Source: Candidatus Omnitrophota bacterium (GTDB lineage: Bacteria; Omnitrophota; Gorgyraeia; Gorgyraeales; Gorgyraeaceae). From it: a stretch of 64,000 nt of DNA. The stretch is from assembly GCA_043814965.1 (NCBI GenBank), contig JBDRJN010000017.1:6038-70037 (forward strand), written 5' to 3'. The notes beneath the pieces were generated by a model. That model did not search any database. It was not told the DNA's origin and saw nothing but the letters and a program-made list of their open reading frames with translations. Below, in pieces: positions 24,744-40,850 of this stretch (the stretch's first letter is position 1; every line of letters begins with the position of its first letter). Position numbers and translations under genes: made by a program.

Positions 24744-26783
24744 ATGGCAAATATAAAAGAACTTGCAAAAATACCAGAACGTTTGTCAGGCGGCCACAGG
24801 CTCTGCGCAGGATGTGGCGCTTCTATAGTAGTGAGACAAGTTTTGATGGGTACAAAAGACTACGTAGTGGCTGGTTCAGCCACAGGCTGCCTGGAAGTAG
24901 CAACAACTATATATCCATATACAGCATGGAAGATACCTTTTATACATAATGCTTTTGAAAATTCCGCAGCTACTATGAGCGGAGTAGAGACAGCTTATAG
25001 GGCGTTAAAGAAAAAAGGCAAGATCACAAAAGAGATAAAGTTTGTTGCATTTGGCGGCGATGGCGGGACCTATGATATAGGGCTTCAGTCGCTTTCAGGC
25101 GCGCTCGAAAGAGGCCATAAGTTCGTATATGTATGCTACAACAACGAAGCTTATATGAATTGCTTAAGCCTTTCTTCTATGATTATGACAGAGTCAGGGC
25201 TTAAAAAGATAACAGAAGTAAAGACAGGAGATATGGTCTATGCTTTTGATCAAAAGACGCACAAATTAGCCTTAAAAAAATGCTCGGGTGTTTTTGATAA
25301 TGGAGTAAAAGATGTATATGAACTTTCTACCCTTCACCATTCCATAAAGGCCACTTCTAACCATCCGTTTTTGGTTTTAAAAAGAAATGGTATAGGCAAA
25401 ACCAGCCAGCTTGTGTGGAAGAAACTGGAAGAAATGAAAGCTGGAGATGAAATAGTGGCATTGAAGGGCATGAACGGTTATTCTAAGTCTATGATGTTTG
25501 ATTTTTCAAAAGTAAAAAAAGGCGACTACAAGGTAAATAGGCTGAATGATATCAATATTCCCAAATCCTCCAGTAAGGAGCTTATGAAGTACTTGGGGCT
25601 CTATATAGGCGATGGGTGGATAAGAGAGAAAAGGGGCGAGGTTGGTTTTGCTCTTCCTGAAAAGACAGTTGGCAGAAGAGAACTTATAAAAATCCATGCA
25701 GAGGTGTTCGGAAGTAAGTTAAATGCTTCAGACAAGGTCTATATATATGCTAATTCCGTAAATCTGGGGAATTTTATAAAGAGCTTGGGAGTCGGTATAG
25801 GCGCCAAAAATAAGACTATTCCCGGATGGGCGTTTACTTTACCCTTAGAAGAGAAGCAAGCTCTTGTAGAAGGCCTGATGCTTTCAGACGGGTATAAATG
25901 CGGGAATAGCTGGAGATATGTATCGGTGAGCGAAGATTTACTTAAAAGTTTAAGGCTCTTTTTGCAGACAATGGGAAAAAGAGTAGGCAAAATCCATTGG
26001 CAGACGAAGAAAAAAGGCATGGTCTGCGTAAGCAGGAAACTCTTAAAAGATTCAAAATATGGCTATATTTGTTTTAGCGATAGAGAAAAATGGAATACAA
26101 AGAAATATCCTGACCAGTATAAATATCAGAATTTTTTGATGGGCAATGAATATTTTGAGATGGAAAAGGTAAGAAGCATAAAGTTGATAGGCAAAGAACC
26201 AACACTGGATCTAAGGGTAGAAGGAGAGCATAATTTTATAGCTGATGGAATAGTGGTGCACAATACAGGCATTCAGCGTTCAGGAGCTACTCCTAAAGGT
26301 GCTTCTACGACTACAGCTCCTGCTGGTAAAGTAAGCATAGGCAAGGTTCAATTTAGAAAAGACCTTACTTCAATAGTTGCTGCACATAGAATTCCTTATA
26401 TAGCACAGGCTTCAGCATCTCACTGGAATGACCTGGTGACAAAAGCTGAAAAAGCGTTTAAAGCAGACGGCCCAGCATTCTTAAACATAATATCAATGTG
26501 CCATAGGGGCTGGAGATTCCCGCAGGAAGATACTATAGCTGTATCAAAGCTTGCAGTAGAGACAGGCTATTGGCCATTAATAGAAGTCGAGAACGGGATC
26601 TGGAAATTCACCTATAAACCTAAAGAAAGGAAGCCTGTCATTGAATTCCTAAAAATTCAAGGCAGATTTAAACATCTATTTAAAGAAGAAAATAAGCATA
26701 TCCTGGACGAAATCCAAAAAGAAGTTGATGATAATTATGCTCGCTTGGAAAGAATGTGCGAAGCGAGTTGTAAAGTTGCGTAA
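24744..26783 (+). CDS. porB: pyruvate:ferredoxin oxidoreductase beta subunit (TPP-binding) interrupted in frame by a 368-aa intein
   Basis: CxxC...C cluster and GDG...NN TPP motif. The extein sequence YNNEAYMN|TGIQRSG is split by a Cys-start/His-Asn-end insert; without the insert the protein is 311 aa. Confidence 0.85.
25161..26264 (+). mobile_element. intein with LAGLIDADG homing-endonuclease domain inside PorB
   Basis: Begins CLSLSS (block A), contains TSNHPF (block B TxxH) and two LAGLIDADG motifs ([22 protein letters not shown]), ends [16 protein letters not shown] with +1 Thr. Confidence 0.8.
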
Positions 26784-26824: not shown

Positions 26825-27193
26825 ATGACCGATGACAAAGATTTTAGTTTTGAAAGATTAGAAGTATATAAAAAAGCGATCAGTTTTATAAATTCAGTTT
26901 TTAGCCTTTGTAATAAAATTCCTTATAAATTACAGAGCTCTCTTGGTGACCAGATGAGAAGAGCTTCTTTATCTATAGCAAATAATATTGCCGAAGGCAG
27001 TGACAAAAGGTTTCCTAAGGATAAAAAAAGATTTTACGATCATTCGCTTGATTCAGCCAGAGAATGCATTCCTATGTTTACAGTTTGTCTGAATCAGGGT
27101 ATAATTACAAGTAATATACATGATAAATTGAGAGACGAATGTATCGTGATCTGTAAGATGTTAAGACGTTTGATACAATCAGTCCCAGAATAA
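26825..27193 (+). CDS. four-helix-bundle protein (family encoded in 23S rRNA intervening sequences, TIGR02436/PF05635-like)
   Basis: Characteristic ..YKKAISF...LGDQMRRASLSIANNIAEG....DHSLDSARECI.. pattern. Confidence 0.7.
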   Translation: MTDDKDFSFERLEVYKKAISFINSVFSLCNKIPYKLQSSLGDQMRRASLSIANNIAEGSDKRFPKDKKRFYDHSLDSARECIPMFTVCLNQGIITSNIHDKLRDECIVICKMLRRLIQSVPE

Positions 27194-27207
27194 TTTTTGT
27201 TCTTTAT

Positions 27208-27245
27208 AACTTTTAAACTTTAAACTTTTAGACTTTTAAACTAAA
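27208..27245. repeat. right imperfect inverted repeat flanking the four-helix-bundle gene
   Basis: AACTTTTAAACTTTAAACTTTTAGACTTTTAAACTAAA. Confidence 0.6.
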
Positions 27246-27250
27246 TACAC

Positions 27251-27552
27251 TCCCCTGTAGCTCAGCTGGTAGAGCGCGTGGCTGTTGAGCGGCGAAGCGA
27301 GCGCAAAACGTTTCGCACAAAGTTAGCAGCCTCTAATGGAAACATTAGAGTGGGAAAGCGGGTAAATTCAGGGAAAGCCTATAGAGTAGGTCAATCCTGA
27401 GCCAAGTCCGCCTAGGCGGAAAGGTGCAGAGACTAGACACTCGCTGCCTAAAGCTGGAAACAGCTATGGCAAAGGTATAGTCCGACTCTCCGAGTAATCG
27501 GAGTCAGATCGTAACCACGTTGTCCGAGGTTCGAGTCCTCGCGGGGGAGCCA
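27251..27552 (+). tRNA. tRNA-Asn (anticodon GTT) interrupted by a group I intron in the anticodon loop
   Basis: Exon 1 is 27251-27285 (acceptor TCCCCTG, D-arm GCTCAGCTGGTAGAGC, anticodon stem CGTGG, loop CTGT) and exon 2 is 27512-27552 (TAA, CCACG, T-arm CGAGG/CCTCG, acceptor CGGGGGA, G, CCA). The spliced anticodon loop CTGTTAA equals the E. coli tRNA-Asn loop. Confidence 0.75.
27286..27511 (+). ncRNA. group I self-splicing intron (226 nt) in tRNA-Asn
   Basis: Matches to all four conserved core elements: P AAATTCAGGGAAAGCC, Q AATCCTGAGCC, R GTGCAGAGACTAGACA, S AAGGTATAGTCC. The 5' exon ends in U and the intron ends in G. Confidence 0.75.
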
Positions 27553-27681
27553 ATCGAATGAAAGCCCTTTTTCGGAGATAATGGAAAAGGGCTTTCTTGT
27601 TGCTAGACATAGGGTTCAGTCTTTTAAAATAAAGTTCGAGCCGAGAATTTTCAAAATTTCTCTTTTAAGAGAGAGGTTTCC
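27553..27681. repeat. X element, copy 1, immediately 3' of the tRNA-Asn CCA; it contains the last ~22 codons of the recombinase gene
   Basis: Its reverse complement recurs at 29120-29248 with about 95% identity, and a same-strand variant recurs at 40614-40680. Confidence 0.8.
27561..27595. terminator. bidirectional hairpin terminator between tRNA-Asn and the convergent recombinase gene
   Basis: AAAGCCCTTTTTC-loop-GAAAAGGGCTTT stem. Confidence 0.5.
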
Positions 27682-27848
27682 TTGCCAAGCAATAGAACCT
27701 GCTTGATTACAAGTAGTTATGAAGTTTTTGGAGGGTTCGAGCCATCCGCCGCTTGTTTGATCTATCTCGCCAAGCCGCTCTTGTAATTCCTTCTTATCGT
27801 TAAGTAGCTTAGCTTTCTTTTTCTGATATTCTTCCTGCGAGATTTCTT
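27610..27848. repeat. ~240-bp direct repeat, copy A (X element plus 3' coding end of the recombinase gene)
   Basis: About 90% identical to 40614-40850, in the same orientation. Confidence 0.8.
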
Positions 27849-28986
27849 TAGAGATATAAAGATCAATAAGGCGTTCAATCTTAATGTCAAATTCCTTTAA
27901 CTTGTCATGGGCTTGGCGAGATAGAGAAGAGGAGGCTTTGCTTTCTCCGTTGGATAACTCGCCCAATCTATTCATCATTTTATCTTTAGTTTCATTATCT
28001 ATAAAAATTTTAAGGATAGCTTTATTTATCTGCGAAAGCAAAGCCTCTTCTCTAAGAAACTTTTGCGAGCATTTGACTATCTTCTTAGTGCATCGGTAAT
28101 AGGTATGGCCTTTATGAATCTCTGCTGTGATATACGCTCCACACTCGCCGCACTTAATAAGGCCTGTAAAAGCAAACTTAATCGCGCCTTTTTTGATAGG
28201 CTTAGCCTTTCGCTTCAAAACTTCCTGGACAGTATCAAAAAGTTTCTTAGAGACAAGCGGCGGGTGATTTGCTTCAAAAAGTTCGCCCTTAAATCTCATA
28301 ACTCCATAATAAAAAGGATTTCGTAAGATTGATGCGAGCGAACTTTTTCGGACAGGCTTGCCTGCCTTGCCTAAAATGCCCCATCTATGAATTTCTCTAA
28401 GTAGCTCCTCAAGCGAATAGTTGCCTCCTGCATATAACTCAAACATCTTTCGGACGAATGGCGCTTTCTCTGGGTCAGGCAAGATAGAGTGATCCTTAAA
28501 GTCATTGATATACCCAAGCGGAGCCCATCCAGGCCATTCGCCTCGGCGTAGTTTCTCACGTAATCCACGCTTCACATTTTCAGAAAGATTATCTATGTAG
28601 TATTTACTCTGCCCGAATGCGATAGAGAGCATAAACTTACCTTGAGCAGAGTTATCAAAGCGATATGTAGGGAATCTTAAGTCTATGATCTTACCAGTAT
28701 CTACGAGATAGATAATCTTTCCGCCGTCTATACTATTGCGGGCAAGCCTGTCCGGGTGCCATGCCAAAATTCCCTCGGCAATATTAGCTTCTATTTGCTT
28801 AAGCATGAAAGAGAAGATAGGCCGTCCCGGCTCTTTAGCTGTCTTAGCTTCAGTAAACTCATCAACTATCTCTAAAGACTCTTTTTTTGCGAATTCCCGC
28901 AACTCATTTATTTGCGATTCAATAGATAAGACTTGCCTATCTTCTTCATCCGTAGATTTCCTGGCGTATAAGTAGAATTTTGGCAT
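27616..28986 (-). CDS. large serine recombinase (resolvase/invertase catalytic domain, recombinase domain, zinc ribbon, coiled coil)
   Basis: N-terminal YARKSTDEED...SIESQ catalytic serine motif, central recombinase domain, CGECG...YYRC zinc ribbon, coiled-coil C-terminus. Confidence 0.85.
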   Translation of the reverse strand: MPKFYLYARKSTDEEDRQVLSIESQINELREFAKKESLEIVDEFTEAKTAKEPGRPIFSFMLKQIEANIAEGILAWHPDRLARNSIDGGKIIYLVDTGKIIDLRFPTYRFDNSAQGKFMLSIAFGQSKYYIDNLSENVKRGLREKLRRGEWPGWAPLGYINDFKDHSILPDPEKAPFVRKMFELYAGGNYSLEELLREIHRWGILGKAGKPVRKSSLASILRNPFYYGVMRFKGELFEANHPPLVSKKLFDTVQEVLKRKAKPIKKGAIKFAFTGLIKCGECGAYITAEIHKGHTYYRCTKKIVKCSQKFLREEALLSQINKAILKIFIDNETKDKMMNRLGELSNGESKASSSLSRQAHDKLKEFDIKIERLIDLYISKEISQEEYQKKKAKLLNDKKELQERLGEIDQTSGGWLEPSKNFITTCNQAGSIAWQGNLSLKREILKILGSNFILKD

Positions 28987-29733: not shown

Positions 29734-29943
29734 ATGAAAAGCAATATTCTTAGACAATTTGGGGCTAAAGTTAAAAAACTTAGGAAAGCTAAGGGTTGGT
29801 CTCAAGAAGAACTTGCTGATAGATGCGGTCTTCATAGGACTTATATAGGCAGCATAGAAAGAAGTGAACGAAATGTTAGTTTAATTAACATCGAAAAAAT
29901 TGCAAAAGCGCTAGGTGCACCAGTTGGAAATTTGGTAGCGTAA
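29734..29943 (+). CDS. XRE-family helix-turn-helix transcriptional regulator
   Basis: Cro/C1-type HTH (QEELADRCGLHRTYIGSIERSERNVSLINIEKIAKAL). Confidence 0.8.
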   Translation: MKSNILRQFGAKVKKLRKAKGWSQEELADRCGLHRTYIGSIERSERNVSLINIEKIAKALGAPVGNLVA

Positions 29944-29993: not shown

Positions 29994-32900
29994 TTGAATA
30001 AGAAGTATTTTAACGCAGATGGTGTCATGGGCTATCCAAGACGCCATTTTTTTGTCTACATTATGTCAAAGTTTAAAAAACCATTAATTAGTTTACTAAT
30101 ATCCGCTATATTTATTATTAATAATACAGCATATGCTATAGATCTGCCTGCAAAATCCTGCCTAAGAATCAATCACATGACAGACAAGGAGAATAAGGAT
30201 GAGGAAATAGGGAGGATCAAAGATGTGTATAAAGCGTTAGAGAACAACACAATTGAATCAGAAAAAAATATTCCAAGAGATAATAAAGGTAGATTCTCTG
30301 AAGAGGAAGGTAAAAATGCTATAGATATGGCCATGTTGCTTAGTGAAAGTAAATATGTAAATATACCATTTACAGTTAAAGAATATCATGAGATTTGGAA
30401 AGTAAAATATCCTGATAAGACAATCTCAACCAGTACAATATATAATGATTTAAACAAGGCTATAGAAAAAGGCTTGGTTGTAAAATCAAACAAAAGTTCT
30501 TATTATGAGTTAACCCAAAGAGCTAAGTCCCTTTTTTCTGAAGGATCTGATAATAAAGAGGAAAGATCACAAAGAAATATTCTATACAACGTTTCCGAAG
30601 CCAAGCTTTATACCAAGGCTGAAGATGGAACGCTTCGGAAAAATAAAAAATTTTATTTACCAGGAGAAGATAAAATATTTTTATCTTTAGTAAATAAACC
30701 TTTGAATAAAAAAGAAGACATTCTTGACAGGCAATTTGCCGTTACGTCTTTAATAGATGCGGGCAGTGAAAAAATAGAAGAATTAAAAGACAGCTCTTCT
30801 AGTGTATATCAATGGATAAATACCTATAAATATTTATGGGAAATAGATGAAAATGAAAGATATGGGGCTTTTGGATCAGGCAAATCTGCAAAGAGAAGGA
30901 TAGAGCAGTTTATAGATGAAGGCATAATTAATAAAGATACTTTGTCAGGCGATATTAAAAAAGCAGGAAAATCTGCGATAAAAGACGAAATGTCAAAGAA
31001 AGATGAGGCATTGCTAAAAATTAGGACAATAGATTACTATAAAGAAGAAGCGCAGGAGTTGGTAGATAACATAAGAAAGATTGCTGGCCAGGATGGAAAA
31101 GTCTTAAATGCTTTAGCGGATAATTTGCAGCGTAACATAGACAAGACAAATGCCCCAAGCCTCCTAGGTTTTATTGAATTGGTCGAAAAAAATAAGTGGG
31201 ATGCAATAAGTGATTTAATGCATAATTTAGAAAGCTTGGAATATTCAGTAGAAGAGATCAATGCGTTTTTGACATTTTCTGCCCTAGTTATTAATGATGA
31301 ATATGCAAAAGTAACTTATGATGATACAAAACCAGCTAGCTATAAAAATGGATGGCTATTTATAGAAAAGAAAAAAGCCGAAGAGCATTATTGGAGCGAT
31401 GAAGAAAAAGAGAAAGATCAGGTATTAAACGATAGCCCAGAAGATATACCAGTTGTTGTTTTAACAGGAAGCAATATGTCCGGTAAATCCCATTATCTAA
31501 AGCAGAATTATTTTATACAGCTTTTAGGCCAGTCTTTCGGATATGTCCCGGCTAAAGAGGCAAATTTACGTATATATGACCATATTGCCTATTTGGACAG
31601 GCCCTCTACTGACAGCTATAATGACTTAAGCGCATTTGGCAAAGAAATAGAAAACTGGAAACCTGTCATAAAAGATATATCAAGCAATTCCTTAGTATTT
31701 GTAGATGAAGGGTATTCTACGACTTCTCCTGAGGATCAGGCTAAGTTCTCAAAAGCAACCGCCGAATTTATTAAAGATAATAATGCACATATCATGATGG
31801 CTTCGCATAACGAAGAATTTATTAATACATTAAATGGGGCCGAAGGAACTAAATTTTATCATTTCGAGATAAATGTTGACGGCAATACGGTTGATTTTAC
31901 TAATAGATTGCGTGATGGCCCCGGAGATTCAAGTGCTTTAGATGTAGCAAAAGCACTTGGGCTGCCGCAAAGCATCTTAGACCGTTCCCAGAATTTTCTT
32001 GATGGAAAGATAGAGCCGGTAGAACCAAATCCAAATCACCTACCTAAAAATATTACCAGATACACAGAAGAAGAAAGAGAAGGATTAAAAAAGGAAACAG
32101 GAAATTTCCTTGCATTTTTCCCTTATGAAAATGTATTAGATATTAAGCCTGGTTACGATGGAAAAAATAAGCTGGAATTAAAATATAAGTCTCCTAATAA
32201 GATAGACCATTATGGTTATGGTTTTGGCAGTAATGATAAGCTAAAAGAAATTTATAACTTTGAGCCTATATTCAAACTTTTTAGCCAGGATAGGGATTTC
32301 AGCAATTTTTCCCCGATACTTAGTACAGATCTTGGGAAAATAAAAAACCCTAATTATATAACAAAGATTCAAAGCATATTAAAGCTCGGTTCTTCGAATG
32401 ATTCAAAGGAAATATTAGAGCGTCAAAAGATGTTTTCTGAATTAATATCAAAACCAGAACTTAGAGAATCCATGAGAGAAGATCTTTTGGGTATAGGTAA
32501 TCTAATGTATTCACTTGTGTTTGCAAGACAGTATATAAGTTTCGAAAGCTTTAATTTACAGTTTTTGGAGAGTGCTATACCTGATTTTAGGAATAGGATA
32601 GTTAAAGATGAAAATAAAGATGTATCTATGGATCTATTCCTGGGCATATTGGATATGAACTTAAAATTAACAGGCCTCGCGTATGAAGATATAGGAGTTT
32701 CGGAAGAAATCAAAAAATTGCAAAATTTACTTTCTATAGAATCTGAACTTGCGCAATTGTATGAAGAGGACCACAGGTATTGGATAGAAAATAAAGACAA
32801 TATGTCATCAGAGGGCTATAAGTCACAAGAAAAAGAATTCAAGAATAAAGTCACAGCTCTTGCAAAGAAATTTACTGAAATTACAGGTGAAAAACTCGTA

Positions 32901-35900
32901 AAGGAAGACAAATTTTATGTAACAGATATTAGGGAATCCCTAAAAAAGATATGCAAAGATATAAACGAAAAGGCTCAAGAAAAAATACCACCTGTCTCTC
33001 TTTTTGATGAAAATATCTGGCCTATATTAAGAGAAGAGACAGACAGGCTTTATCCTTTTGTTGATAATGAATTATCGCGCACTGTATTCTCCGCACCGCC
33101 TCATGTCATAGGTTTTTATTATATAAAAGCTTTATTGACAGATGAGAATTTGGTTGAAAAGCTTGTAGGGCAGCTAAAAAGTACGGATTCAGTCCATCTT
33201 CATCAATTTGCTAATTATTTTGATAAGATTTTTAATGTCTGGTTCGGAGAATTTAAGACAGGCATTGATTATTTAAAACATAAGAATGATTTACCAGGGA
33301 AAATAGCTGAAGTTGAAAAAAATATAAAAGAAGAAAAGGCATACCAAAAAAGCCTCATAAAAGGCAGTGAAGAAATAACCAGAATATTACAGGATAATCC
33401 GGATTTCCTGCAAAAAAGAATAGATGATTGCGAGGCGCAAATAAAAAATAAAGAAAAAGATATCGTGAATTATTCGGAGATTGTTGAGAGAAATCCGGGT
33501 GATGGCTATTGGGTTAATTTATTAAAAGAATCTAAGGATGCAAAGTTAAATTTAGAAAAAGAACTCAAAGATCTTCCTTTAGTTCAAAAGGCTGTAAATG
33601 GAGAAATATCTTTTGGCGATAATATAGACCAGGATTATCTTTTTAAACTGGTTCATGATGATTTTGTGGGTAGTAAGATCAGAAACTTATCCAGTAAATT
33701 AAGCATGTTGAAAGGCGAGCTAGATAGTAATCCTTTTGAAAGAAGAAGCGGTTTTGATGAAATACTAAATGAAAGTTTTAAGATGCATGTTTTATTGACT
33801 ATGGCATATTTAATGGATTATCAGGGATGGAAACCCGTTGAATTTACAAACGATCTTACTATAGATATGCAAGATGCCTGGAATCTTGTGAAGACAAAGG
33901 ATGAACAGGTGCCTTTAGATTTTACAATGAACGACAATGAAAAGGTAAAGATCTTTTCAGGGTCTAATATGTCAGGTAAGACCTTTGCTGAAAAGACCCT
34001 TATATGGAATGCTTTGTCAGGGCTAACTACAGGTTATGCTCCTAATGGGGGAATGAAAATGCCAATATTCGACCATGTAGTTTATATTGATAGAGTAACT
34101 GCGCAAATAGATAGAAAACTAAGCAGCTTTGGCCATGAAATAGAATACTGGAAAACATTCCTTAATGCTATAGATGATGATGACCTGGCTTTAGTTATTA
34201 TAGATGAGATGGGTTCAACTACGTCTCCAAAATATCAATCAGCATTATCTTATGCTATGTCAGAAGAGATGCTTGAAAAGGGGCATTTTCTTGTAGTTGC
34301 TTCGCATAATCATGCCTATATTGATGCATTTGAGAATACAAACGATAAATATAGTAATACCTATAATCTACTTACCAGGATAGATGAAGAAGGAAAAGCA
34401 GTGTTTGATTATAAGCTGGTTCCAGGGCATGAACCAAGTAATAGCATTGCGGTAGCAAAGACTATGGGATTTGATAAGATGGTTGGTTATATAGAAGAAG
34501 ATAATAAGGCCGATGAGTTGCTTATCCCAATATTGGCTGAACCGTATATTAATCATGACAAAGCAGTTAAGGATATGGTTAATCCTGGTAATAAGGATTT
34601 TGTAGGCCTATATGGAGGCGCAGGAGCAGACGTATCAAATGTTCTATATTCAACAAATGCTACTAAGGTTTATTTTGTTGATACAAGAAGTGTTTTCCTG
34701 GATAAACTTAAATACTATTGGCAGAATACCAAGCTTTCGCAAGAAGAAGAAAATCTATACAAGGAATATTCTAAGGAAAAATATTTTGCAGGATTCGGAG
34801 ATGTTGGGAAACTTATTGGAGATTTGGAGCTATATTTAACAGGTGAGTTAAAATCAATAGGTGTTACATCTAAAGACATAATAGATATTAATAATGACGA
34901 ATCAGGTAATCTTCGTATTAAATTTAACTGGGCATATGATAAAGATTCTCCTAAGAAAGAACGTGAAATTATCTTTATGCAGGATGATATTACTAAACCT
35001 TCTGACAAATTAATTGAATCAATAAATGGTAAGATAGATTTTTATTACCAAAGGGCAGCGTTGGACATCCCAATGAAATATAATGTTTTTATAAAGAAGA
35101 TAGGGGATTGCATGAAACCAAATGGTTTTATGATAACGGATAATAATTCCCCAAGAGGCGATTTTGGTTTTTACTATATAACACCTAAGCTAACAGATTT
35201 CAAGTTATTAGAAGACTCTAAAGATATGAAGACTAGCGCAAAAGAAATAGAGAACTTAAGGCGTGGGTATATGGGTCCTTATGGCTGGGCAGTTTCTATT
35301 ATGCAGAAGAAAGCAGAAAGCTTGGTTTCCAGCGAACCCACAGAAACTTCCCCTGGTCGCGGAACGGGAACAAATAACCCCACCCAGCCTACGAAAAACA
35401 TCCCTCTTGACAAGAAAGATATAGGCGCAAAGCTTGATGGTATAAAGCCAAAAAATATAAGTTCAATTAATCGAGACGCCAAGTCCGCTGAAGTACTAAA
35501 ATTCCTGGGAGACATAGATTCAGCTCCGAGTGATAAAAAAGCGCAGCTTGTGGTTGATTATATTTTAAACTTAAGCGGAATGGCTTTTAAAACAAAAAGT
35601 TTCCCTGTTTCAAAAGAAAGGCTTGATCAAATAGAAGATAGGCAATCTAAATTTTTAGAACGCTATTCAAAAAAACATGGCCTTTCACCGTCACTCAAAA
35701 AATATATCAACATTCAATATAGATCACTTACAAAGATATCAGAGGATAAATATGCAACGATAGCAAGTATTAATAGGATAGACTATTTTCTAGTGCTCTC
35801 AAAAGATGAATCAGGCATAGAGGATTTTAAACTTATATCCATGGATTCTAAAGATGAAATAAAGAAATATCAAAAAATTGCCAATAACTTTGTGCGAAAA

Positions 35901-38900
35901 ATTCTGCCAGGCGATAAAAATAAGAAGAAAAGAGAAAAAGTCGAGGACGACATTTCGAGTTTCTTTAATGAGATTAAAAGAAAAGCTAATAGAGATGAAG
36001 AATTTGATAGATTCTTCAAAGATACAGACCATCCTGACTTACCATTTAGTTATGCATTAGGCAGCCCTGCATTAAAAGTGCCGGAACTTGAATCAGCCAA
36101 AGAGCCTATCCAGTTGGAGGCTAAAACCGAAGAAAGAAAGTATAAGACTATCGCTGAAATAACTGATGAAGTTTTATTAAAACCAATTGAATCATTGATT
36201 AAAATAGATAAAGATGGCAACCCAAGGGCTTTAACGCAGGATGAGATCCTTTTAGAATATAAAAAAGGAGCGCTTGAAGCACTTAGGACAAAGGAAGGCT
36301 ATGAAGATGAATCTGAATTAAAGCAGTGGATTTCGCTTATATTGAAAGCAATAGAATATAATGATATGGAATTTAATCATATAGAAAAGAAAGAAGGATG
36401 GTTTCTCCTGGATGAAATATCTTTTCCTAAATTAAGAGAAAGCGCCAGAAAAAATATATTAACTGCTGCTACGATCCCAAGAGATGGAAAAACCTGGGTA
36501 TTTATAAAAGAAAATATGAACCTTTATCAGGCTGCATATGCTTTAACAAAACTCTCAGGAGTTGAACAAAAAATGACAATAGTTGGTTTAGGAGAAAAAT
36601 GTACCGAAACATTAAGATCCTCAATAAGAACTGTGATCCAAGAGGCGTATAAAGAAACCAAACCTATTGAGTCCAGCGAAATAAAAGATGAAGAAAAAAA
36701 CCTTGATTTTCATAATAGATTTTTACAAAAGCTCCATTATTCTTATAAAGTAGATCCAGAGTTCAGGAAAGCAATAGATGAACTACGCGAAAAAGTTTTA
36801 AGCCAGATACATCCACAAGAAAGTGAAGCTTTTAGATTTATTACAGATAATGAAATAACCAGCTTTGCTTTGGAATTTGCCGCGCGAATAGGAGAAACCC
36901 CTCTTATAGCTGACCCATATACCAGTTGGGGTATTATAGATAATGAGAAAGACGAGCCCCATTATTTTATAAACTATTCTGAACTTTATGCAAAACATAA
37001 AAAAGCTATTGATAAATACACGCATTATTCACATTACGAATTTATTATTGATGATGGCTCGTGGAGTGGGCTTAAGGTGAAAGGCGGGATGAATTATCTA
37101 TATAATACTCTTCGCAATATTTTTACATACAATGAAATAGTAGATTTTCTTAAAAGTGAAACAAATAAAGGGCTTATCAACCCAATAGTAAAACCCTATG
37201 AAACAGAACAGTTTTTCCTTCCTAATATTGATTTTACAAGGCCAAGCGATGAGGATGCCTTTGATAATATGAATATTGATCAGCTTTTCCAGGCAGTAGA
37301 AAATATGCCTAAAGAAGAATGGGAGAAATATAAAGTCAATATATTAAACCGATATTCCTATCTTGCCCGTAAAGGAGAAATAGAGCCAGTTTTTTTTATG
37401 AAACATATCAGCGCATTAGCAAAAAAAGATGTTGATATTTTACGGGATAAACACGCAAGCTGGGCTAGCGGCCATAAATATTATTTTGATAGGGCTGAAA
37501 TAACAAGGGCAATCATTGAGACTGTTTTAAGGTCTTCTAAATCAAGTTTTTTAAATGATGATTTCCTTTTAGAATATTATTCCCAGGCTGATGAAGTAAA
37601 AGATGACGGTACATTTGTTTACTATGAAACAAAGGATTACAAAAAAACTGACGAACAAATTTCACAAGTAAATGCTATCAATCGTCTTGCCAATGGTTAT
37701 ATGGGTGAAGGCCCTATATCCAGATATCCATTATATGCATTGTCTATGATCATGAATATTTCTCCTGAACGCATAGGCCCAAAAACTATGAATTTATTTG
37801 TTGCTATGGCAGAAGCAGGCAGGGATAGATATAAGCTATATATAGGAGACGATCGTGGCTGGCTAGAAGATAGCTATGGCGTAACCCCTGTTTTTGATAT
37901 ACCAATCAGAGCTTTTGACTATCACCCTGAATATTATTCTAAACTTTTGGTTGAATCTAAAATAACCCCGGATATTTTAACTTTTCTCATCAGGCCGGAG
38001 ACTGCCCCAGGGGATAATATAGGTCTGTTTTCTTCTCTGCGAGAACCAGGAGCAGAAGAAAGGGAATACAAAAGCTTTCTTTCAGGTGAAATAATAAAAG
38101 GTTTGGTTACAGGGAATTCAGTAGAGGGCAATCAACTCAAATTATTAAAAGCTATTATCAATGATTTTTCAGCAGTTGCCAACAATACTATTCTTGAACA
38201 CTGGAGAAAGTTTAGTAAAGATGACTTAAATTCACTTTTAGGGCTTAAAACAAAAGTAGATAGTTCCATACTTGAAAAAATGGAAACCATTTTTAGCAAA
38301 GAAGGATTAGGCAATAGGGTAGTTGCTTTGTTTTTAGCAATGTATCCTGATTTTAATATAGAAACTGCCAAGGATTTGGACAAGCTTTTAAAAGATGACT
38401 CAGTTCAAACTACATTTGGCATATTAAAAGCTATTAAAGATAAATTATGGACAATAGAAGAAATCAGGGCTCTTTATAGGGCTAATCTATGGAGTTTTAC
38501 CTCAGCTAATGTAAGGCATACTAATTTAAAACAAGTGCTTAATTTATCAGAAGAAGATAAGTCAAAGCTTTTCATAGTATTATCGGGTAAAAAATTATTG
38601 CCTCAGAATATTTTCGATATTTATCCTTTAAATATTCCAAAGGATCATGCGCTTTACGATAAATATAGCCATGAATTAAAAACTTACTCAATGAGTTATT
38701 CAAGTTTTACCGGAGCGATGGAAATGGTTGCAGATTCTAAGGAACTAGAAGAAAGCGTTAAAGGTAGAGTTACGCATAGGTCAAGGCTCTTATTTAATGA
38801 CCTTGGAGCTATCTTGAAATTGCCCAGGAAAGACCTGTTGAGAAAAGTTGAACTATTGGAAAAATTCGAGACGAACAAAGTTGAATTAGACAATACTGCT

Positions 38901-40355
38901 TACAGGCTCCTATTAGTAGTCCCAGAAGAACATTTTGATGAATTATTCGGTATTTTGGAAGAGAATTTTGATAGCCTTAAAAATCTGAAACAAACAAAGA
39001 AAGAAATAACTGCCAAATTTCAGGATATAGTTAAATTAAACCCTGAATTAAAGGATCTTTCGCAGAAAACCATTGTCCGATGGGCTAGTGAGCAAATGGG
39101 CATAACTTCGCGTAAAAGGCTTACAGAACCAGGCGCAAAAGACAATATTGCCAGCGCTTTTCGAGATAAGCTGAAAGCTGATGATCTAGGTAGAAAGGTA
39201 AATAGCGGGGAAGCGAGCGAGGAAGAAAATAAAAAATATATGAACCTGATAGCTGTAAATAAGTTATTATCAGCGATCGTTGATAATGTGAAACTATACA
39301 AATCCTGGCTTTCAGAGATACCAGATGCAGAGACTGACCCCAGCAAAATGTTGCCAGGCAAAGTCTTAATCGAACCCAATCAAACTACAGAAACCTCCCC
39401 TGGTCCGCGATCGGGATTGGTAGAAAACACCATAGAAAATTCTGAATCAGAAGAATCAAAGATCCAGACTCAGATTAGTGAATTTTTAAATATTACACGT
39501 GAAATCAATAGAAGCGATTCTAAACAAAAAGTTAATTATGTATTTGATAAGGTAGGCCCAAATATCGACACTATTTTAAGAGGCCATCTTTTAGATGAAG
39601 GTATTTCAGCTATTAGAAGAGAAATAACATATGACTCTAAAGATCTAGAACTCTTTGAAACATCAAAATATTTCTTAGAGCTTCTTATAGAAAATTCTAC
39701 AGTGTTTTCATCAGAAGATGCCTTAGCCGGCAGAATACAATTATTATCGAAGCAGTATAGTATGGTAGAAAGAGTTGTAAAAGAATGCGATGATCTTTTA
39801 AATAATCCTGCACTTATAAGTGAGTTTGCAGATGCAGTAAAAGGTTTTAAGTTGGATCTAGAGAAACAAAAAAATAAGATGACAAATATTATAGATTACT
39901 TAAAGGCTAAAGACTTTTTTGAAGAAGGAGAAAATCCATCCGAAGTCTTAGCTGATATTGAGATAGATCATGTAGTTTTAGATGTAATGGATGGCATAGG
40001 GCGTCCTAATAGTTTTGTAGGCATATTAGACGCTCTTTTGATAAAAGGAAACATTAAATCAATAACTGTATTTAGCCGTTCTCAAGATAGTTTAAATATT
40101 TTTATAGATAGAATAGGGCTTGAGAAATTTAATGAACTTAAAGAAAAAGGCATTAATTTTGTCGTAGAAAAAAAACTATGGGAAGAAGGCAATAATTCTG
40201 AAGCTAATCTTTGGGCGAAAGTAGGAAATGAATTGTTCAATATAGATAGGCATATGTTTGGCGATAAAATAGGAATAAATAGGGTAACGATATTAAATGT
40301 TAAAGATAAACTATCAGAAGGAAAAATGCTAATAGAACATCTAAATAATATGTAA
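29994..40355 (+). CDS. giant 3453-aa multidomain protein with two MutS-family (domain V) ABC-ATPase modules and an N-terminal signal/anchor segment
   Basis: Uninterrupted 10.4-kb ORF. The first module at aa ~485-655 has Walker A GSNMSGKS, Walker B LVFVDEGYSTTSP, and the MutS C-terminal motif GPGDSSALDVAKALGLPQSIL. The second at aa ~1320-1490 has GSNMSGKT, LVIIDEMGSTTSP and SNSIAVAKTMGF. MutS-core-like helices precede module 2. A possible Rossmann GxGxG (LYGGAGADVS) lies at aa ~1540, with ETSPG(R/P) linkers. An alternative start at the Met at 30063 (MSKFKKPLISLLISAIFII) would give a signal peptide. Confidence 0.8.
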   Translation: MNKKYFNADGVMGYPRRHFFVYIMSKFKKPLISLLISAIFIINNTAYAIDLPAKSCLRINHMTDKENKDEEIGRIKDVYKALENNTIESEKNIPRDNKGRFSEEEGKNAIDMAMLLSESKYVNIPFTVKEYHEIWKVKYPDKTISTSTIYNDLNKAIEKGLVVKSNKSSYYELTQRAKSLFSEGSDNKEERSQRNILYNVSEAKLYTKAEDGTLRKNKKFYLPGEDKIFLSLVNKPLNKKEDILDRQFAVTSLIDAGSEKIEELKDSSSSVYQWINTYKYLWEIDENERYGAFGSGKSAKRRIEQFIDEGIINKDTLSGDIKKAGKSAIKDEMSKKDEALLKIRTIDYYKEEAQELVDNIRKIAGQDGKVLNALADNLQRNIDKTNAPSLLGFIELVEKNKWDAISDLMHNLESLEYSVEEINAFLTFSALVINDEYAKVTYDDTKPASYKNGWLFIEKKKAEEHYWSDEEKEKDQVLNDSPEDIPVVVLTGSNMSGKSHYLKQNYFIQLLGQSFGYVPAKEANLRIYDHIAYLDRPSTDSYNDLSAFGKEIENWKPVIKDISSNSLVFVDEGYSTTSPEDQAKFSKATAEFIKDNNAHIMMASHNEEFINTLNGAEGTKFYHFEINVDGNTVDFTNRLRDGPGDSSALDVAKALGLPQSILDRSQNFLDGKIEPVEPNPNHLPKNITRYTEEEREGLKKETGNFLAFFPYENVLDIKPGYDGKNKLELKYKSPNKIDHYGYGFGSNDKLKEIYNFEPIFKLFSQDRDFSNFSPILSTDLGKIKNPNYITKIQSILKLGSSNDSKEILERQKMFSELISKPELRESMREDLLGIGNLMYSLVFARQYISFESFNLQFLESAIPDFRNRIVKDENKDVSMDLFLGILDMNLKLTGLAYEDIGVSEEIKKLQNLLSIESELAQLYEEDHRYWIENKDNMSSEGYKSQEKEFKNKVTALAKKFTEITGEKLVKEDKFYVTDIRESLKKICKDINEKAQEKIPPVSLFDENIWPILREETDRLYPFVDNELSRTVFSAPPHVIGFYYIKALLTDENLVEKLVGQLKSTDSVHLHQFANYFDKIFNVWFGEFKTGIDYLKHKNDLPGKIAEVEKNIKEEKAYQKSLIKGSEEITRILQDNPDFLQKRIDDCEAQIKNKEKDIVNYSEIVERNPGDGYWVNLLKESKDAKLNLEKELKDLPLVQKAVNGEISFGDNIDQDYLFKLVHDDFVGSKIRNLSSKLSMLKGELDSNPFERRSGFDEILNESFKMHVLLTMAYLMDYQGWKPVEFTNDLTIDMQDAWNLVKTKDEQVPLDFTMNDNEKVKIFSGSNMSGKTFAEKTLIWNALSGLTTGYAPNGGMKMPIFDHVVYIDRVTAQIDRKLSSFGHEIEYWKTFLNAIDDDDLALVIIDEMGSTTSPKYQSALSYAMSEEMLEKGHFLVVASHNHAYIDAFENTNDKYSNTYNLLTRIDEEGKAVFDYKLVPGHEPSNSIAVAKTMGFDKMVGYIEEDNKADELLIPILAEPYINHDKAVKDMVNPGNKDFVGLYGGAGADVSNVLYSTNATKVYFVDTRSVFLDKLKYYWQNTKLSQEEENLYKEYSKEKYFAGFGDVGKLIGDLELYLTGELKSIGVTSKDIIDINNDESGNLRIKFNWAYDKDSPKKEREIIFMQDDITKPSDKLIESINGKIDFYYQRAALDIPMKYNVFIKKIGDCMKPNGFMITDNNSPRGDFGFYYITPKLTDFKLLEDSKDMKTSAKEIENLRRGYMGPYGWAVSIMQKKAESLVSSEPTETSPGRGTGTNNPTQPTKNIPLDKKDIGAKLDGIKPKNISSINRDAKSAEVLKFLGDIDSAPSDKKAQLVVDYILNLSGMAFKTKSFPVSKERLDQIEDRQSKFLERYSKKHGLSPSLKKYINIQYRSLTKISEDKYATIASINRIDYFLVLSKDESGIEDFKLISMDSKDEIKKYQKIANNFVRKILPGDKNKKKREKVEDDISSFFNEIKRKANRDEEFDRFFKDTDHPDLPFSYALGSPALKVPELESAKEPIQLEAKTEERKYKTIAEITDEVLLKPIESLIKIDKDGNPRALTQDEILLEYKKGALEALRTKEGYEDESELKQWISLILKAIEYNDMEFNHIEKKEGWFLLDEISFPKLRESARKNILTAATIPRDGKTWVFIKENMNLYQAAYALTKLSGVEQKMTIVGLGEKCTETLRSSIRTVIQEAYKETKPIESSEIKDEEKNLDFHNRFLQKLHYSYKVDPEFRKAIDELREKVLSQIHPQESEAFRFITDNEITSFALEFAARIGETPLIADPYTSWGIIDNEKDEPHYFINYSELYAKHKKAIDKYTHYSHYEFIIDDGSWSGLKVKGGMNYLYNTLRNIFTYNEIVDFLKSETNKGLINPIVKPYETEQFFLPNIDFTRPSDEDAFDNMNIDQLFQAVENMPKEEWEKYKVNILNRYSYLARKGEIEPVFFMKHISALAKKDVDILRDKHASWASGHKYYFDRAEITRAIIETVLRSSKSSFLNDDFLLEYYSQADEVKDDGTFVYYETKDYKKTDEQISQVNAINRLANGYMGEGPISRYPLYALSMIMNISPERIGPKTMNLFVAMAEAGRDRYKLYIGDDRGWLEDSYGVTPVFDIPIRAFDYHPEYYSKLLVESKITPDILTFLIRPETAPGDNIGLFSSLREPGAEEREYKSFLSGEIIKGLVTGNSVEGNQLKLLKAIINDFSAVANNTILEHWRKFSKDDLNSLLGLKTKVDSSILEKMETIFSKEGLGNRVVALFLAMYPDFNIETAKDLDKLLKDDSVQTTFGILKAIKDKLWTIEEIRALYRANLWSFTSANVRHTNLKQVLNLSEEDKSKLFIVLSGKKLLPQNIFDIYPLNIPKDHALYDKYSHELKTYSMSYSSFTGAMEMVADSKELEESVKGRVTHRSRLLFNDLGAILKLPRKDLLRKVELLEKFETNKVELDNTAYRLLLVVPEEHFDELFGILEENFDSLKNLKQTKKEITAKFQDIVKLNPELKDLSQKTIVRWASEQMGITSRKRLTEPGAKDNIASAFRDKLKADDLGRKVNSGEASEEENKKYMNLIAVNKLLSAIVDNVKLYKSWLSEIPDAETDPSKMLPGKVLIEPNQTTETSPGPRSGLVENTIENSESEESKIQTQISEFLNITREINRSDSKQKVNYVFDKVGPNIDTILRGHLLDEGISAIRREITYDSKDLELFETSKYFLELLIENSTVFSSEDALAGRIQLLSKQYSMVERVVKECDDLLNNPALISEFADAVKGFKLDLEKQKNKMTNIIDYLKAKDFFEEGENPSEVLADIEIDHVVLDVMDGIGRPNSFVGILDALLIKGNIKSITVFSRSQDSLNIFIDRIGLEKFNELKEKGINFVVEKKLWEEGNNSEANLWAKVGNELFNIDRHMFGDKIGINRVTILNVKDKLSEGKMLIEHLNNM

Positions 40356-40613: not shown

Positions 40614-40850
40614 TAGGGTTCGGTCTTTTAAAATAAAGTTCGAGCCGAGAATTTTCAAAATTTCTCTTTTAAGAGAGAGGTTTCCTTGCCAAGCAATAGA
40701 ACCTGCTTCGTTACAAGTAGTTATGAAGTTTTTGGAGGGTTCGAGCCATCCGCCGCTTGATTTAGCGAGCTCGCCAAGTCGCTCCTGTAAGTCTTTCTTA
40801 TCATTGAGTAATTTAGCCTTCTTTTTCTGATATTCTTCCTGTGAAATCTC
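40614..40850. repeat. direct repeat copy B: X-element variant plus a truncated 3' fragment of a recombinase gene (pseudogene remnant, minus strand)
   Basis: About 90% identity to 27610-27848; no intact ORF. Confidence 0.75.

What the first reader, a model, noticed from the sequence alone, without database searches (positions are those of the whole stretch)
27251..27552. Group I intron interrupting tRNA-Asn(GUU), an unusual host tRNA
The 226-nt insert in the anticodon loop carries recognisable P, Q, R and S core elements (AAATTCAGGGAAAGCC; AATCCTGAGCC; GTGCAGAGACTAGACA; AAGGTATAGTCC). Splicing at U|...G| restores a canonical CUGUUAA Asn anticodon loop and a 76-nt tRNA. Bacterial tRNA group I introns are known mainly in tRNA-Leu(UAA), tRNA-fMet, tRNA-Ile and tRNA-Arg, and I am not aware of a tRNA-Asn example. 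It also appears to be the only tRNA-Asn copy in the window.
Basis: partly seen in the sequence, partly recalled or inferred. Interest (0 to 1): 0.65.

Follow-up and report, generated by a model that had tools for sequence, protein, structure and literature searches.

The report
Self-splicing intron in tRNA-Asn gene
The window really does hold a tRNA-Asn gene split by a group I self-splicing intron, but this kind of intron was already published (2020 preprint, 2026 paper with splicing assays), so this is a new example in a new host group, not a new phenomenon.

Summary
A 226-nt group I intron (27286-27511, Rfam RF00028, 73.3 bits, E=1e-16) splits a tRNA-Asn(GUU) gene between anticodon positions 35 and 36. 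The intron's own guide sequence (GUUAGCAGCC) is complementary to the ligated exon junction GGCUGU|UAAC, with the canonical U•G wobble at the splice site. The intron ends in G. Helices P2-P9 are supported by covariation in 13 related introns.

The novelty claim does not hold. The tRNA-Asn 35/36 class was listed by Williams (bioRxiv 2020) and shown to self-splice in vitro by Nakagawa et al. (mSystems 2026). My two scans each hit their 120-locus limit and found about 190 further split tRNA-Asn genes in many phyla.

This copy has three particular features:
- Its host is probably an Omnitrophota bacterium, a phylum not listed for this class in the 2026 paper.
- It is compact and IC3-like (no P7.1/P7.2), whereas the published tRNA-Asn introns whose labels I could read are IA.
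- It has lost the HNH-like homing endonuclease ORF that its close relatives carry in the P1 loop.

One side finding goes further. The same compact intron family sits in archaeal-type tRNA-Asn genes on DPANN contigs that also encode MCM helicase. I found no paper reporting group I introns in archaeal tRNA genes.

The parts
27251..27285 (+). tRNA-Asn(GUU) 5' exon: acceptor stem, D arm, anticodon stem 5' strand and loop bases C32 U33 G34 U35
   Evidence: ARAGORN calls the joined exons tRNA-Asn(gtt), 76 nt. The exons are 81-85% identical to published intron-bearing tRNA-Asn exons, which themselves match intron-less tRNA-Asn genes at 97-100%.
27286..27511 (+). Group I intron, 226 nt, no ORF, compact IC3-like architecture
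   Evidence: RF00028 73.3 bits, E=1e-16. Covariation-supported fold. nhmmer scores: 51.5 bits against the IC3 profile, 34.8 against the IA-Asn profile.
27512..27552 (+). tRNA-Asn 3' exon: U36 A37 A38, anticodon stem 3' strand, variable loop, T arm, acceptor 3' strand, discriminator G, encoded CCA
27280..27288 (+). P1 5' strand, GGCUGU|UGA; the 5' splice site follows U27285 (U35)
   Evidence: Pairs with 27323-27331 (UUAGCAGCC). U27285 faces G27326, giving the U•G wobble.
27292..27316 (+). Extra hairpin in the P1 loop; homologous to the sequence 5' of the HNH-like ORF in relatives (a trace of endonuclease loss)
   Evidence: MFE fold. Alignment with L169, L133, L197, L230 and L179.
27322..27331 (+). 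Internal guide sequence GUUAGCAGCC: GCAGCC forms P1 with the 5' exon, GUUA forms P10 with the 3' exon UAAC
   Evidence: Its reverse complement GGCTGCTAAC matches the ligated junction GGCTGT|TAAC at 9 of 10 positions; the one difference is the U•G wobble.
27332..27349 (+). P2 hairpin with GAAA loop
   Evidence: All 6 counted pairs show compensatory changes in alignment A1.
27357..27363 (+). P3 5' strand (AGCGGGU)
   Evidence: Pairs with 27439-27445. 4 of the 5 counted pairs show compensatory changes and 100% of cells are paired.
27367..27401 (+). P4 (27367-27373 with 27395-27401) enclosing the P5 hairpin (27377-27391)
   Evidence: P4 has 7 pairs, 3 with compensatory changes, 100% paired. P5 has 3 counted pairs, 2 compensatory.
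27407..27420 (+). P6a hairpin (UCCGCC-UAG-GCGGA)
   Evidence: MFE fold. Length varies among relatives, so it was not scored for covariation.
27429..27435 (+). P7 5' strand G(A)GACUA, with a bulged A; expected guanosine-binding helix
   Evidence: Pairs with 27478-27483 (UAGUCC) as a pseudoknot. Invariant in all 13 aligned introns, so there is no covariation for or against it.
27439..27445 (+). P3 3' strand (ACUCGCU), only 3 nt after P7, leaving no room for P7.1/P7.2
   Evidence: The R-to-S spacing is 42 nt, against 54-117 nt in the long tRNA-Asn introns.
27446..27470 (+). P8 with an internal CCUAAA...UAUGG motif that resembles the 11-nt GAAA-tetraloop receptor
   Evidence: 7 counted pairs, 6 with compensatory changes. 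The receptor reading rests on my knowledge of the Azoarcus IC3 intron.
27478..27483 (+). P7 3' strand (UAGUCC)
27484..27511 (+). P9.0 (GA 27484-85 with UC 27509-10), P9 hairpin CUCCGA-GUAA-UCGGAG (27488-27503), and the terminal guanosine G27511
   Evidence: The two P9.0 pairs show compensatory changes in 4 and 6 of the 13 sequences. The terminal G is invariant.
27560..27596 (+). Terminator-like hairpin followed by a T-rich tail, 8 nt after the tRNA
   Evidence: Consensus scan: 15-pair stem. This is a pattern match only.

Best explanation
This is a tRNA-Asn(GUU) gene of a probable Omnitrophota bacterium, interrupted between anticodon nucleotides U35 and U36 by a 226-nt group I intron that carries no endonuclease gene. 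The gene is transcribed as one precursor. The intron folds into the standard group I core (P1-P9). Its guide sequence pairs with the last six exon bases (GGCUGU) and places U35 in a U•G wobble. A free guanosine then attacks after U35. The 3' exon (UAAC) docks on the adjacent part of the same guide (P10), and the intron's last base G27511 enters the guanosine site. The freed U35 3'-OH attacks after G27511, joining the exons into a normal tRNA with anticodon loop CUGUUAA. The intron descends from a mobile lineage that carried an HNH-like homing endonuclease ORF in the P1 loop. That ORF has been lost here, so this copy is probably immobile. It probably persists because imprecise loss would destroy the anticodon. 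Shown here: the sequence, the fold, the splice-site geometry and the family relationships. Inferred: that this particular copy splices.
For: RF00028 hit above the gathering score, covering the full model. The spliced product is a canonical tRNA-Asn(GUU). The guide sequence at 27322-27331 is complementary to the ligated junction at 9 of 10 positions, with U•G at the splice site, and the intron ends in G. In 13 related introns, 95.1% of cells are paired against 77.3% in shuffles, 28 of 41 pairs carry compensatory changes, 0 of 500 shuffles reach the observed values, and sliding the partners drops pairing to 30-48%. RNAalifold independently finds 26 of 39 pairs compensatory. Members of the same class (tRNA-Asn 35/36) were shown to self-splice precisely in vitro, and a terminal G-to-C mutant was blocked (PMC13011429). 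The P1-loop hairpin is homologous to the region 5' of the ORF in relatives L230 and L179, with intermediate decay stages in L169, L133 and L197. Synteny with Omnitrophota chromosome CP070837.1: porA at 63% identity, porB at 72-83%, then a split tRNA-Asn whose intron is 79.5% identical. No other tRNA-Asn is in the window.
Against: No RNA data or splicing assay exists for this sequence. The experimentally tested tRNA-Asn intron is of the IA type from Patescibacteria, not this compact type. P7 and the junction bases are invariant in the family, so covariation cannot test them. Only 64 kb of the genome is visible, so a second, intact tRNA-Asn cannot be excluded. The Omnitrophota assignment rests on synteny and similarity to one named MAG chromosome and to other Omnitrophota-labelled MAGs, not on a marker-gene phylogeny.
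Confidence: 0.88

Rival explanations
1. The host is tRNA-Thr(CGU) with the intron at position 33/34. ARAGORN gives this reading when intron detection is switched on.
For: ARAGORN -i on the unspliced region reports tRNA-Thr(cgt) i(34,226). The exon body is only slightly more similar to the two intact tRNA-Asn available (0.797) than to tRNA-Arg (0.783) or tRNA-Thr (0.754).
Against: With that boundary the intron would end in U rather than G, and the 5' exon's last U would face an A rather than the G of a wobble pair. The guide sequence matches GGCUGU|UAAC, not GUGGCU|CGUA. Nakagawa et al. document exactly this 2-nt shift artefact of ARAGORN and tFind and disproved it by sequencing the spliced product. 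U1-A72 and discriminator G73 fit bacterial tRNA-Asn (my knowledge).
Confidence: 0.02
2. The intron is a decayed, catalytically dead remnant. The gene would then be a tRNA pseudogene, with a functional tRNA-Asn elsewhere in the genome.
For: The homing endonuclease ORF has been lost. Only 64 kb of the genome is visible. There are no expression data.
Against: Every core helix is intact, and this sequence carries every position that is invariant across the 13 aligned relatives. The RF00028 score is in the range of its relatives (71-92 bits). The exons form a perfect cloverleaf with CCA. The closest relatives keep 80-89% identity across the ribozyme body, with changes concentrated in loops. In the published survey, intron-bearing and intron-less copies of the same anticodon rarely coexist in one genome.
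Confidence: 0.07
3. It is a true group I intron but it does not splice efficiently on its own. In the cell it would need a protein cofactor or chaperone.
For: Many group I introns need protein help in vivo (general knowledge). This copy is small, encodes no protein, and comes from a low-GC genome (38% GC).
Against: The intron is GC-rich relative to the genome (51% against 38%). It has the GAAA and GUAA loops and a receptor-like motif in P8, which stabilise compact IC3 ribozymes such as Azoarcus without protein (my knowledge). Other tRNA-Asn 35/36 introns self-splice in vitro.
Confidence: 0.1

Closest known systems
tRNA-Asn(GUU) position 35/36 group I introns (class 'Asn.4Ug' of Williams 2020; Nakagawa et al. 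mSystems 2026)
   Same: Same host tRNA, same insertion site, same U-1 and terminal-G boundaries, and the same ARAGORN mis-call as tRNA-Thr. The HNH-like ORF in the P1 loop of relatives is the same family: the L004 ORF, from the WWE3 genome in their Table 1, is a BLAST homologue (E=1.6e-29).
   Different: All ten published tRNA-Asn introns whose subgroup labels I could read are classed IA1 or IA2: one Patescibacteria row, three Cyanobacteriota, three Nitrospirota and one Bipolaricaulota among them. The seven complete non-Patescibacteria sequences carry about 45 extra nt between P7 and P3'. This copy has only 3 nt there and scores better on an IC3 profile. Omnitrophota is not among the phyla they list for 35/36 introns.
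Azoarcus tRNA-Ile(CAU) and cyanobacterial tRNA-Arg(CCU) / tRNA-Leu(UAA) IC3 introns
   Same: Compact size of about 200-250 nt. P2 with a GAAA loop, P8 with a CCUAA...UAUGG receptor-like motif, P9 with a GNRA loop, no P7.1/P7.2, and near-identical J3/4-P4, P6 and P7 sequences (the Azoarcus comparison is from memory).
   Different: Different host tRNA and insertion site (36/37 or 34/35 rather than 35/36), and a different guide sequence.
Archaeal group I introns (Nawrocki, Jones & Eddy 2018)
   Same: Close relatives of this intron occur in DPANN archaea (Pacearchaeota and Woesearchaeota), the same lineages that carry rRNA group I introns.
   Different: All 39 archaeal introns in that paper are in rRNA genes and are IA3 or IB4. 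The relatives found here are in tRNA-Asn and are IC3-like.

Membership tests
Group I intron (Rfam RF00028) | Covariance-model score at or above the curated gathering score | tested here: met
   73.3 bits against 50, E=1e-16, model positions 1-253 of 253.
Group I intron (Rfam RF00028) | P1 formed by the 5' exon and an internal guide, with a U•G wobble at the splice site | tested here: met
   GGCUGU pairs with GCAGCC, with U27285 facing G27326.
Group I intron (Rfam RF00028) | Terminal guanosine, with P9.0/P10 defining the 3' splice site | tested here: met
   G27511 is invariant. P10 is UAAC with GUUA. The P9.0 pairs covary.
Group I intron (Rfam RF00028) | Conserved core helices P3-P8, including the P3/P7 pseudoknot | tested here: met
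   95.1% of cells paired, 28 of 41 pairs compensatory, 0 of 500 shuffles reach this. P7 is invariant, so it is consistent but untested by covariation.
Group I intron (Rfam RF00028) | Guanosine-dependent self-splicing | not testable with these tools
   Needs an in vitro assay. It has been shown for other tRNA-Asn 35/36 introns.
tRNA-Asn(GUU) 35/36 intron class | The spliced exons form a tRNA-Asn with anticodon GUU | tested here: met
   ARAGORN on the joined exons. 81-85% identity to published tRNA-Asn exons. The two intact tRNA-Asn rank first, though narrowly.
tRNA-Asn(GUU) 35/36 intron class | Insertion between nucleotides 35 and 36 of the anticodon | tested here: met
   The exon ends CUGU and the next exon begins UAA. 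The guide sequence confirms this.
Subgroup IA1/IA2 (the label of the published tRNA-Asn introns I could read) | Extra helices P7.1/P7.2 between P7 and the 3' strand of P3 | tested here: not met
   Only 3 nt (27436-27438) separate P7 from P3'. The IA-Asn profile aligns only the 5' half, at 34.8 bits.
Subgroup IC3 | Compact core without P7.1/P7.2 or P2.1, and GNRA loops on P2 and P9 with a receptor in P8 | tested here: met
   Helix map. L2 is GAAA, L9 is GUAA, and P8 carries CCUAAA/UAUGG. The receptor reading is from knowledge, not tested.
Subgroup IC3 | Best score with the IC3 subgroup covariance model used in the literature | tested here: inconclusive
   Those models were not available. As a proxy, an nhmmer profile of 11 IC3-labelled introns gave 51.5 bits across P3-P7', against 34.8 for the IA-Asn profile. 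The long tRNA-Asn introns behave the opposite way, scoring 80-177 on the IA-Asn profile.

The most novel reading that the evidence does not exclude
The window's intron may belong to a compact, IC3-like lineage of tRNA-Asn 35/36 introns, mobilised by an HNH-like endonuclease, that has crossed between Bacteria (Omnitrophota and others) and DPANN Archaea. Of 98 well-defined metagenomic relatives sharing an exact 21-nt core motif, 44 sit in archaeal-type tRNA-Asn genes (G1-C72; 43 lack an encoded CCA). Five of those contigs also encode the MCM helicase, and one archaeal-labelled MAG locus encodes TYW3. If so, these would be the first group I introns reported in archaeal tRNA genes, which are otherwise spliced by the protein endonuclease pathway. 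Williams's 2020 'mis-binned' Pacearchaeota case would then have been real.
Probability: 0.5. Interest if true: 0.6.

Novelty: new member of a known kind. Interest (0 to 1): 0.35.

Why it matters
The finding itself has mostly practical value. Standard tRNA finders miss this gene (ARAGORN by default, Rfam's tRNA model) or mis-call it as tRNA-Thr, so genomes like this one appear to lack tRNA-Asn, and completeness estimates and anticodon tables come out wrong. It also extends a recently described intron class to Omnitrophota and shows that the class includes a compact IC3-like form. The broader interest lies in the relatives. One intron family occupies the same anticodon position in bacterial and archaeal tRNA-Asn genes. 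This gives a concrete case for studying inter-domain intron transfer. It also raises the question of how a self-splicing intron coexists with the archaeal tRNA-splicing endonuclease pathway.

Tried and rejected
- Source contig. Exact-protein look-ups with two window proteins (the 122-aa IVP protein and PorA) found nothing on record. The environment and organism name remain unknown, and the Omnitrophota assignment is by synteny only.
- Phage or plasmid origin. blastn in distant mode with the whole split gene found no match in either collection.
- A tRNA 3'-end duplicate as an attachment site for the neighbouring recombinase element. There is no second copy of the last 25 nt, even with 3 mismatches allowed. 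The repeat bracketing that element is instead the recombinase gene's own 3' end.
- Isotype by exon-body similarity to intact tRNAs in the fetched loci. tRNA-Asn ranks first, but the margin is too small to be decisive. I rely on the guide sequence instead.
- Rfam scan of 12 archaeal-type loci for domain-specific RNAs. It returned only the intron itself and one RT-16 RNA. Protein markers (MCM, TYW3) were needed.
- Pfam on the intron ORFs. The HNH match is only E≈0.003, below the gathering score. The assignment leans on homology to the ORF that Nakagawa et al. classed as PF01844.
- My first impression of 'IC3' came from memory of the Azoarcus sequence. I replaced it with a profile test against labelled published sequences.
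- First literature search. The spelling 'tRNA-Asn' returned only organelle papers, while 'tRNAAsn' found the key paper.

Full report
**1. The observation**

- Rfam's group I intron model RF00028 matches 27276-27504 on the + strand over its whole length, at 73.3 bits (gathering score 50, E=1e-16).
- The four quoted core strings each occur once, at 27364-27379, 27393-27403, 27424-27439 and 27472-27483.
- Cutting after ...GGCUGU (27285) and after ...GAUCG (27511) removes 226 nt.
- The joined exons form a 76-nt cloverleaf that ARAGORN calls tRNA-Asn(GUU), with loop CUGUUAA, discriminator G and an encoded CCA.
- ARAGORN in default mode and Rfam's tRNA model both miss the gene. They find only tRNA-Arg and two tRNA-Ser genes in the window, so this is the only tRNA-Asn in the 64 kb.

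**2. Splice sites**

With intron detection on, ARAGORN calls the locus tRNA-Thr(CGU) with the intron shifted by 2 nt. The intron's own guide sequence rejects this reading.
- The reverse complement of 27322-27331 (GUUAGCAGCC) is GGCUGCUAAC. It matches the ligated junction GGCUGU|UAAC at 9 of 10 positions, and the only difference is the U•G wobble expected at a group I 5' splice site.
- So GCAGCC forms P1 with the 5' exon, and GUUA forms P10 with the 3' exon.
- The intron ends in G27511. The two bases before it (UC) pair with the GA that follows P7 (P9.0), and those two pairs show compensatory changes among relatives.
- The shifted reading would end the intron on U and lose both the wobble and P10.
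- Nakagawa et al. describe the same 2-nt artefact and disproved it by sequencing spliced RNA.

**3. The fold**

I aligned the ribozyme body (guide sequence to 3' exon) of this intron with 12 compact relatives from public genomes (alignment A1).
- RNAalifold recovered P2, P3, P4, P5, P8 and P9, with 26 of 39 pairs showing compensatory changes.
- A curated structure that adds the P7 pseudoknot gives 95.1% of cells paired, against 77.3% in column shuffles. 28 of 41 pairs carry double changes, and 0 of 500 shuffles reach any of the five measures.
- Sliding the 3' partners by 1-3 columns drops pairing to 30-48%.
- P7 is invariant, so covariation is silent on it.
- Window coordinates of every helix are given in 'parts'.
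- An extra hairpin (27292-27316) sits in the P1 loop.

**4. What is already known**

A first literature search under the spelling 'tRNA-Asn' found nothing relevant. 'tRNAAsn' found the key paper.
- Nakagawa et al. [quoted passage not shown]
  - There are 15 tRNA-Asn cases in 95 complete Patescibacteria genomes.
  - In 4,934 complete bacterial genomes there are 28 introns at 35/36: 19 in Patescibacteria, 3 in Cyanobacteriota, 3 in Nitrospirota, and 1 each in Bacillota_A, Bipolaricaulota and Pseudomonadota.
  - In vitro, splicing was precise and a terminal G-to-C mutant was blocked.
- Their Table S5 gives sequences of tRNA-Asn introns from Nitrospirota, Bipolaricaulota and Cyanobacteriota.
- Williams (bioRxiv 2020) had already expanded the four classical tRNA/intron settings to 21. 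Nakagawa et al. cite his 'Asn.4Ug' as this class.
- The host tRNA and the site are therefore not new.

**5. How common it is**

- A scan of species-representative genomes used a pattern joining the P7 3' strand to a tRNA-Asn-type 3' exon. It stopped at its 120-locus limit.
- 91 of those loci are clean tRNA-Asn(GUU) genes split at 35/36. They come from Omnitrophota, Cyanobacteriota, Patescibacteria, Nitrospirota, Acidobacteriota, Planctomycetota-labelled bins, Methylomirabilota, Elusimicrobiota and others.
- A metagenome scan with a 21-nt motif specific to the compact type also hit its limit, and 98 of its 120 loci were well-defined split tRNA-Asn genes.
- No similar sequence exists in the phage or plasmid collections.

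**6. Host organism**

The closest genome hit is L050, the chromosome CP070837.1 of an Omnitrophota MAG.
- Its intron is 79.5% identical over 166 nt.
- The locus is syntenic with the window: porA at 63% identity, porB at 72-83%, then the split tRNA-Asn.
- Other Omnitrophota-labelled MAGs (L001, L024, L083) have nearly the same exons.
- The window is therefore probably from an Omnitrophota bacterium. The exact source contig is not on record.
- Omnitrophota is not among the phyla listed for 35/36 introns in the 2026 paper.

**7. Subgroup**

- Every published tRNA-Asn intron whose label I could read is IA1 or IA2. Each complete sequence carries a hairpin of about 45 nt between P7 and the 3' strand of P3.
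- In the window only 3 nt lie there.
- The spacing from the R element to the S element is 42 nt. It is 30-49 nt in a compact subset of 15 genome loci and 54-117 nt in the rest.
- I built profiles from 11 IC3-labelled introns and from 5 IA-labelled tRNA-Asn introns in Table S5.
  - The window's intron scores 51.5 bits on the IC3 profile, aligned from P3 through the P7 3' strand. It scores 34.8 bits on the IA-Asn profile, aligned over the 5' half only.
  - Its closest relatives score 71-78 against 28-34.
  - Long tRNA-Asn introns behave the opposite way, at 30-55 against 80-177.
- P2 ends in GAAA, P9 ends in GUAA, and P8 contains CCUAAA...UAUGG. From memory, this is the tetraloop-receptor arrangement of the Azoarcus IC3 ribozyme.
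- I therefore call it IC3-like. The official subgroup models were not available, so the label remains provisional.

**8. History of this copy**

- 46 of 58 long (400 nt or more) introns in the fetched loci encode a homologous ORF of about 95 aa in the P1 loop, with a CxxC...HH...CxxCH pattern.
- Pfam gives only a weak HNH match (E≈0.003, below the cut-off).
- The set includes the WWE3 genome whose intron ORF Nakagawa et al. classed as HNH.
- The window's closest relatives form a decay series:
  - L230 and L179 have the full ORF.
  - L169 (88.6% identical to ours over 193 nt) keeps only the ORF's two ends.
  - L133, L197 and the window keep only the 5' hairpin.
  - L126 has nothing.
- The window's intron is thus a derivative of a once-mobile element that has lost its endonuclease.

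**9. Mechanism and limits**

- The best explanation is ordinary group I self-splicing that restores the anticodon. Everything structural is shown. Catalysis by this copy is inferred from class membership and an intact core.
- The main rival that cannot be excluded is a dead intron with a functional tRNA-Asn elsewhere (about 7%).
- The tRNA-Thr reading is effectively excluded.

**10. Side finding**

Three genome loci labelled Pacearchaeota or Woesearchaeota (L008, L016, L097) rank second to fourth in similarity to the window's intron, at 75-77%.
- Their exons begin G1-C72 and lack an encoded CCA.
- In the metagenome set, 44 of 98 split tRNA-Asn genes are of this type and 54 are the bacterial type (U1).
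- Five of the archaeal-type contigs encode a full MCM helicase a few kb away, one with the archaeal MCM winged-helix domain.
- L016 encodes TYW3.
- 8 of 12 such loci reach 71-92 bits on RF00028.
- A neighbour-joining tree of 86 distinct cores needs only 5 host-domain switches, against about 29 for shuffled labels. The nearest cross-domain identity is 0.84 (median) and up to 0.875.
- The HNH-like ORF occurs in both host types.
- Nawrocki et al. 2018 found all 39 archaeal group I introns in rRNA genes. Williams dismissed his one archaeal tRNA case as mis-binning. Further searches found no report of group I introns in archaeal tRNA genes.
- This is the most novel thread, but it concerns the relatives rather than the window.

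**11. Verdict**

The structural interpretation is correct and the novelty claim is out of date. This is a new member of a known kind: a new host phylum, a compact IC3-like form, and no endonuclease ORF. Interest in the finding itself is modest. The cross-domain family deserves separate follow-up.

Noticed in passing
L008, L016, L097 (genome contigs); L159, L147, L177, L129, L136 and 39 other metagenome loci: The same compact intron family interrupts archaeal-type tRNA-Asn genes (G1-C72, no encoded CCA) at 35/36 on DPANN contigs that also encode MCM helicase or TYW3. I found no published report of group I introns in archaeal tRNA genes.
   Followed up: partly
L230, L179, L169, L133, L197, L126 compared with window 27286-27331: A stepwise decay series of the HNH-like homing endonuclease ORF in the P1 loop: full ORF, then ORF ends only, then 5' hairpin only (the window), then nothing.
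   Followed up: yes
window 24744-26783 (+): The pyruvate:ferredoxin oxidoreductase beta subunit (TPP-binding domain) is interrupted by an intein (Pfam Intein_splicing, residues about 147-507). The syntenic porB in Omnitrophota CP070837.1 (L050) lacks it.
   Followed up: partly
window 27610-27846 and 40614-40850: A 237-nt direct repeat (92% identical) brackets a 13-kb, lower-GC segment (33-35% GC over the giant ORF, against about 39% elsewhere). The segment holds a large serine recombinase (27616-28986, -), an HTH gene (29734-29943) and a 3453-aa ORF (29994-40355) whose only Pfam hit is MutS domain V. The repeat is the recombinase gene's 3' end. It looks like an integrated element next to the tRNA.
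   Followed up: partly
L057, L034, L050, L018, L001, L120, L076, L060: Homologues of the window's serine recombinase lie next to split tRNA-Asn genes in several other phyla. L057 (Patescibacteria UBA2103) is 53% identical over the full length, in the same convergent layout. This suggests a family of elements associated with tRNA-Asn loci.
   Followed up: no
window 26825-27193 (+): A gene for a 23S rRNA intervening-sequence protein (four-helix bundle, PF05635) sits between porB and the tRNA. It has no counterpart in the syntenic L050 locus.
   Followed up: no
window 27202-27242: A/T-rich near-repeats (CTTTATAACTTTTAAACT and CTTTTAGACTTTTAAACT) lie immediately upstream of the tRNA. A strong sigma-70-like match (TTTACA-17-TATAAT) is at 27077-27105, inside the end of the upstream gene.
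   Followed up: no
L147 5761-9165 (-): The archaeal MCM gene near one split tRNA-Asn itself carries an intein with a LAGLIDADG domain.
   Followed up: no
L220 8970-9122 (-): An RT-16 RNA (RF03019, 109.5 bits) lies on one of the archaeal-type contigs.
   Followed up: no
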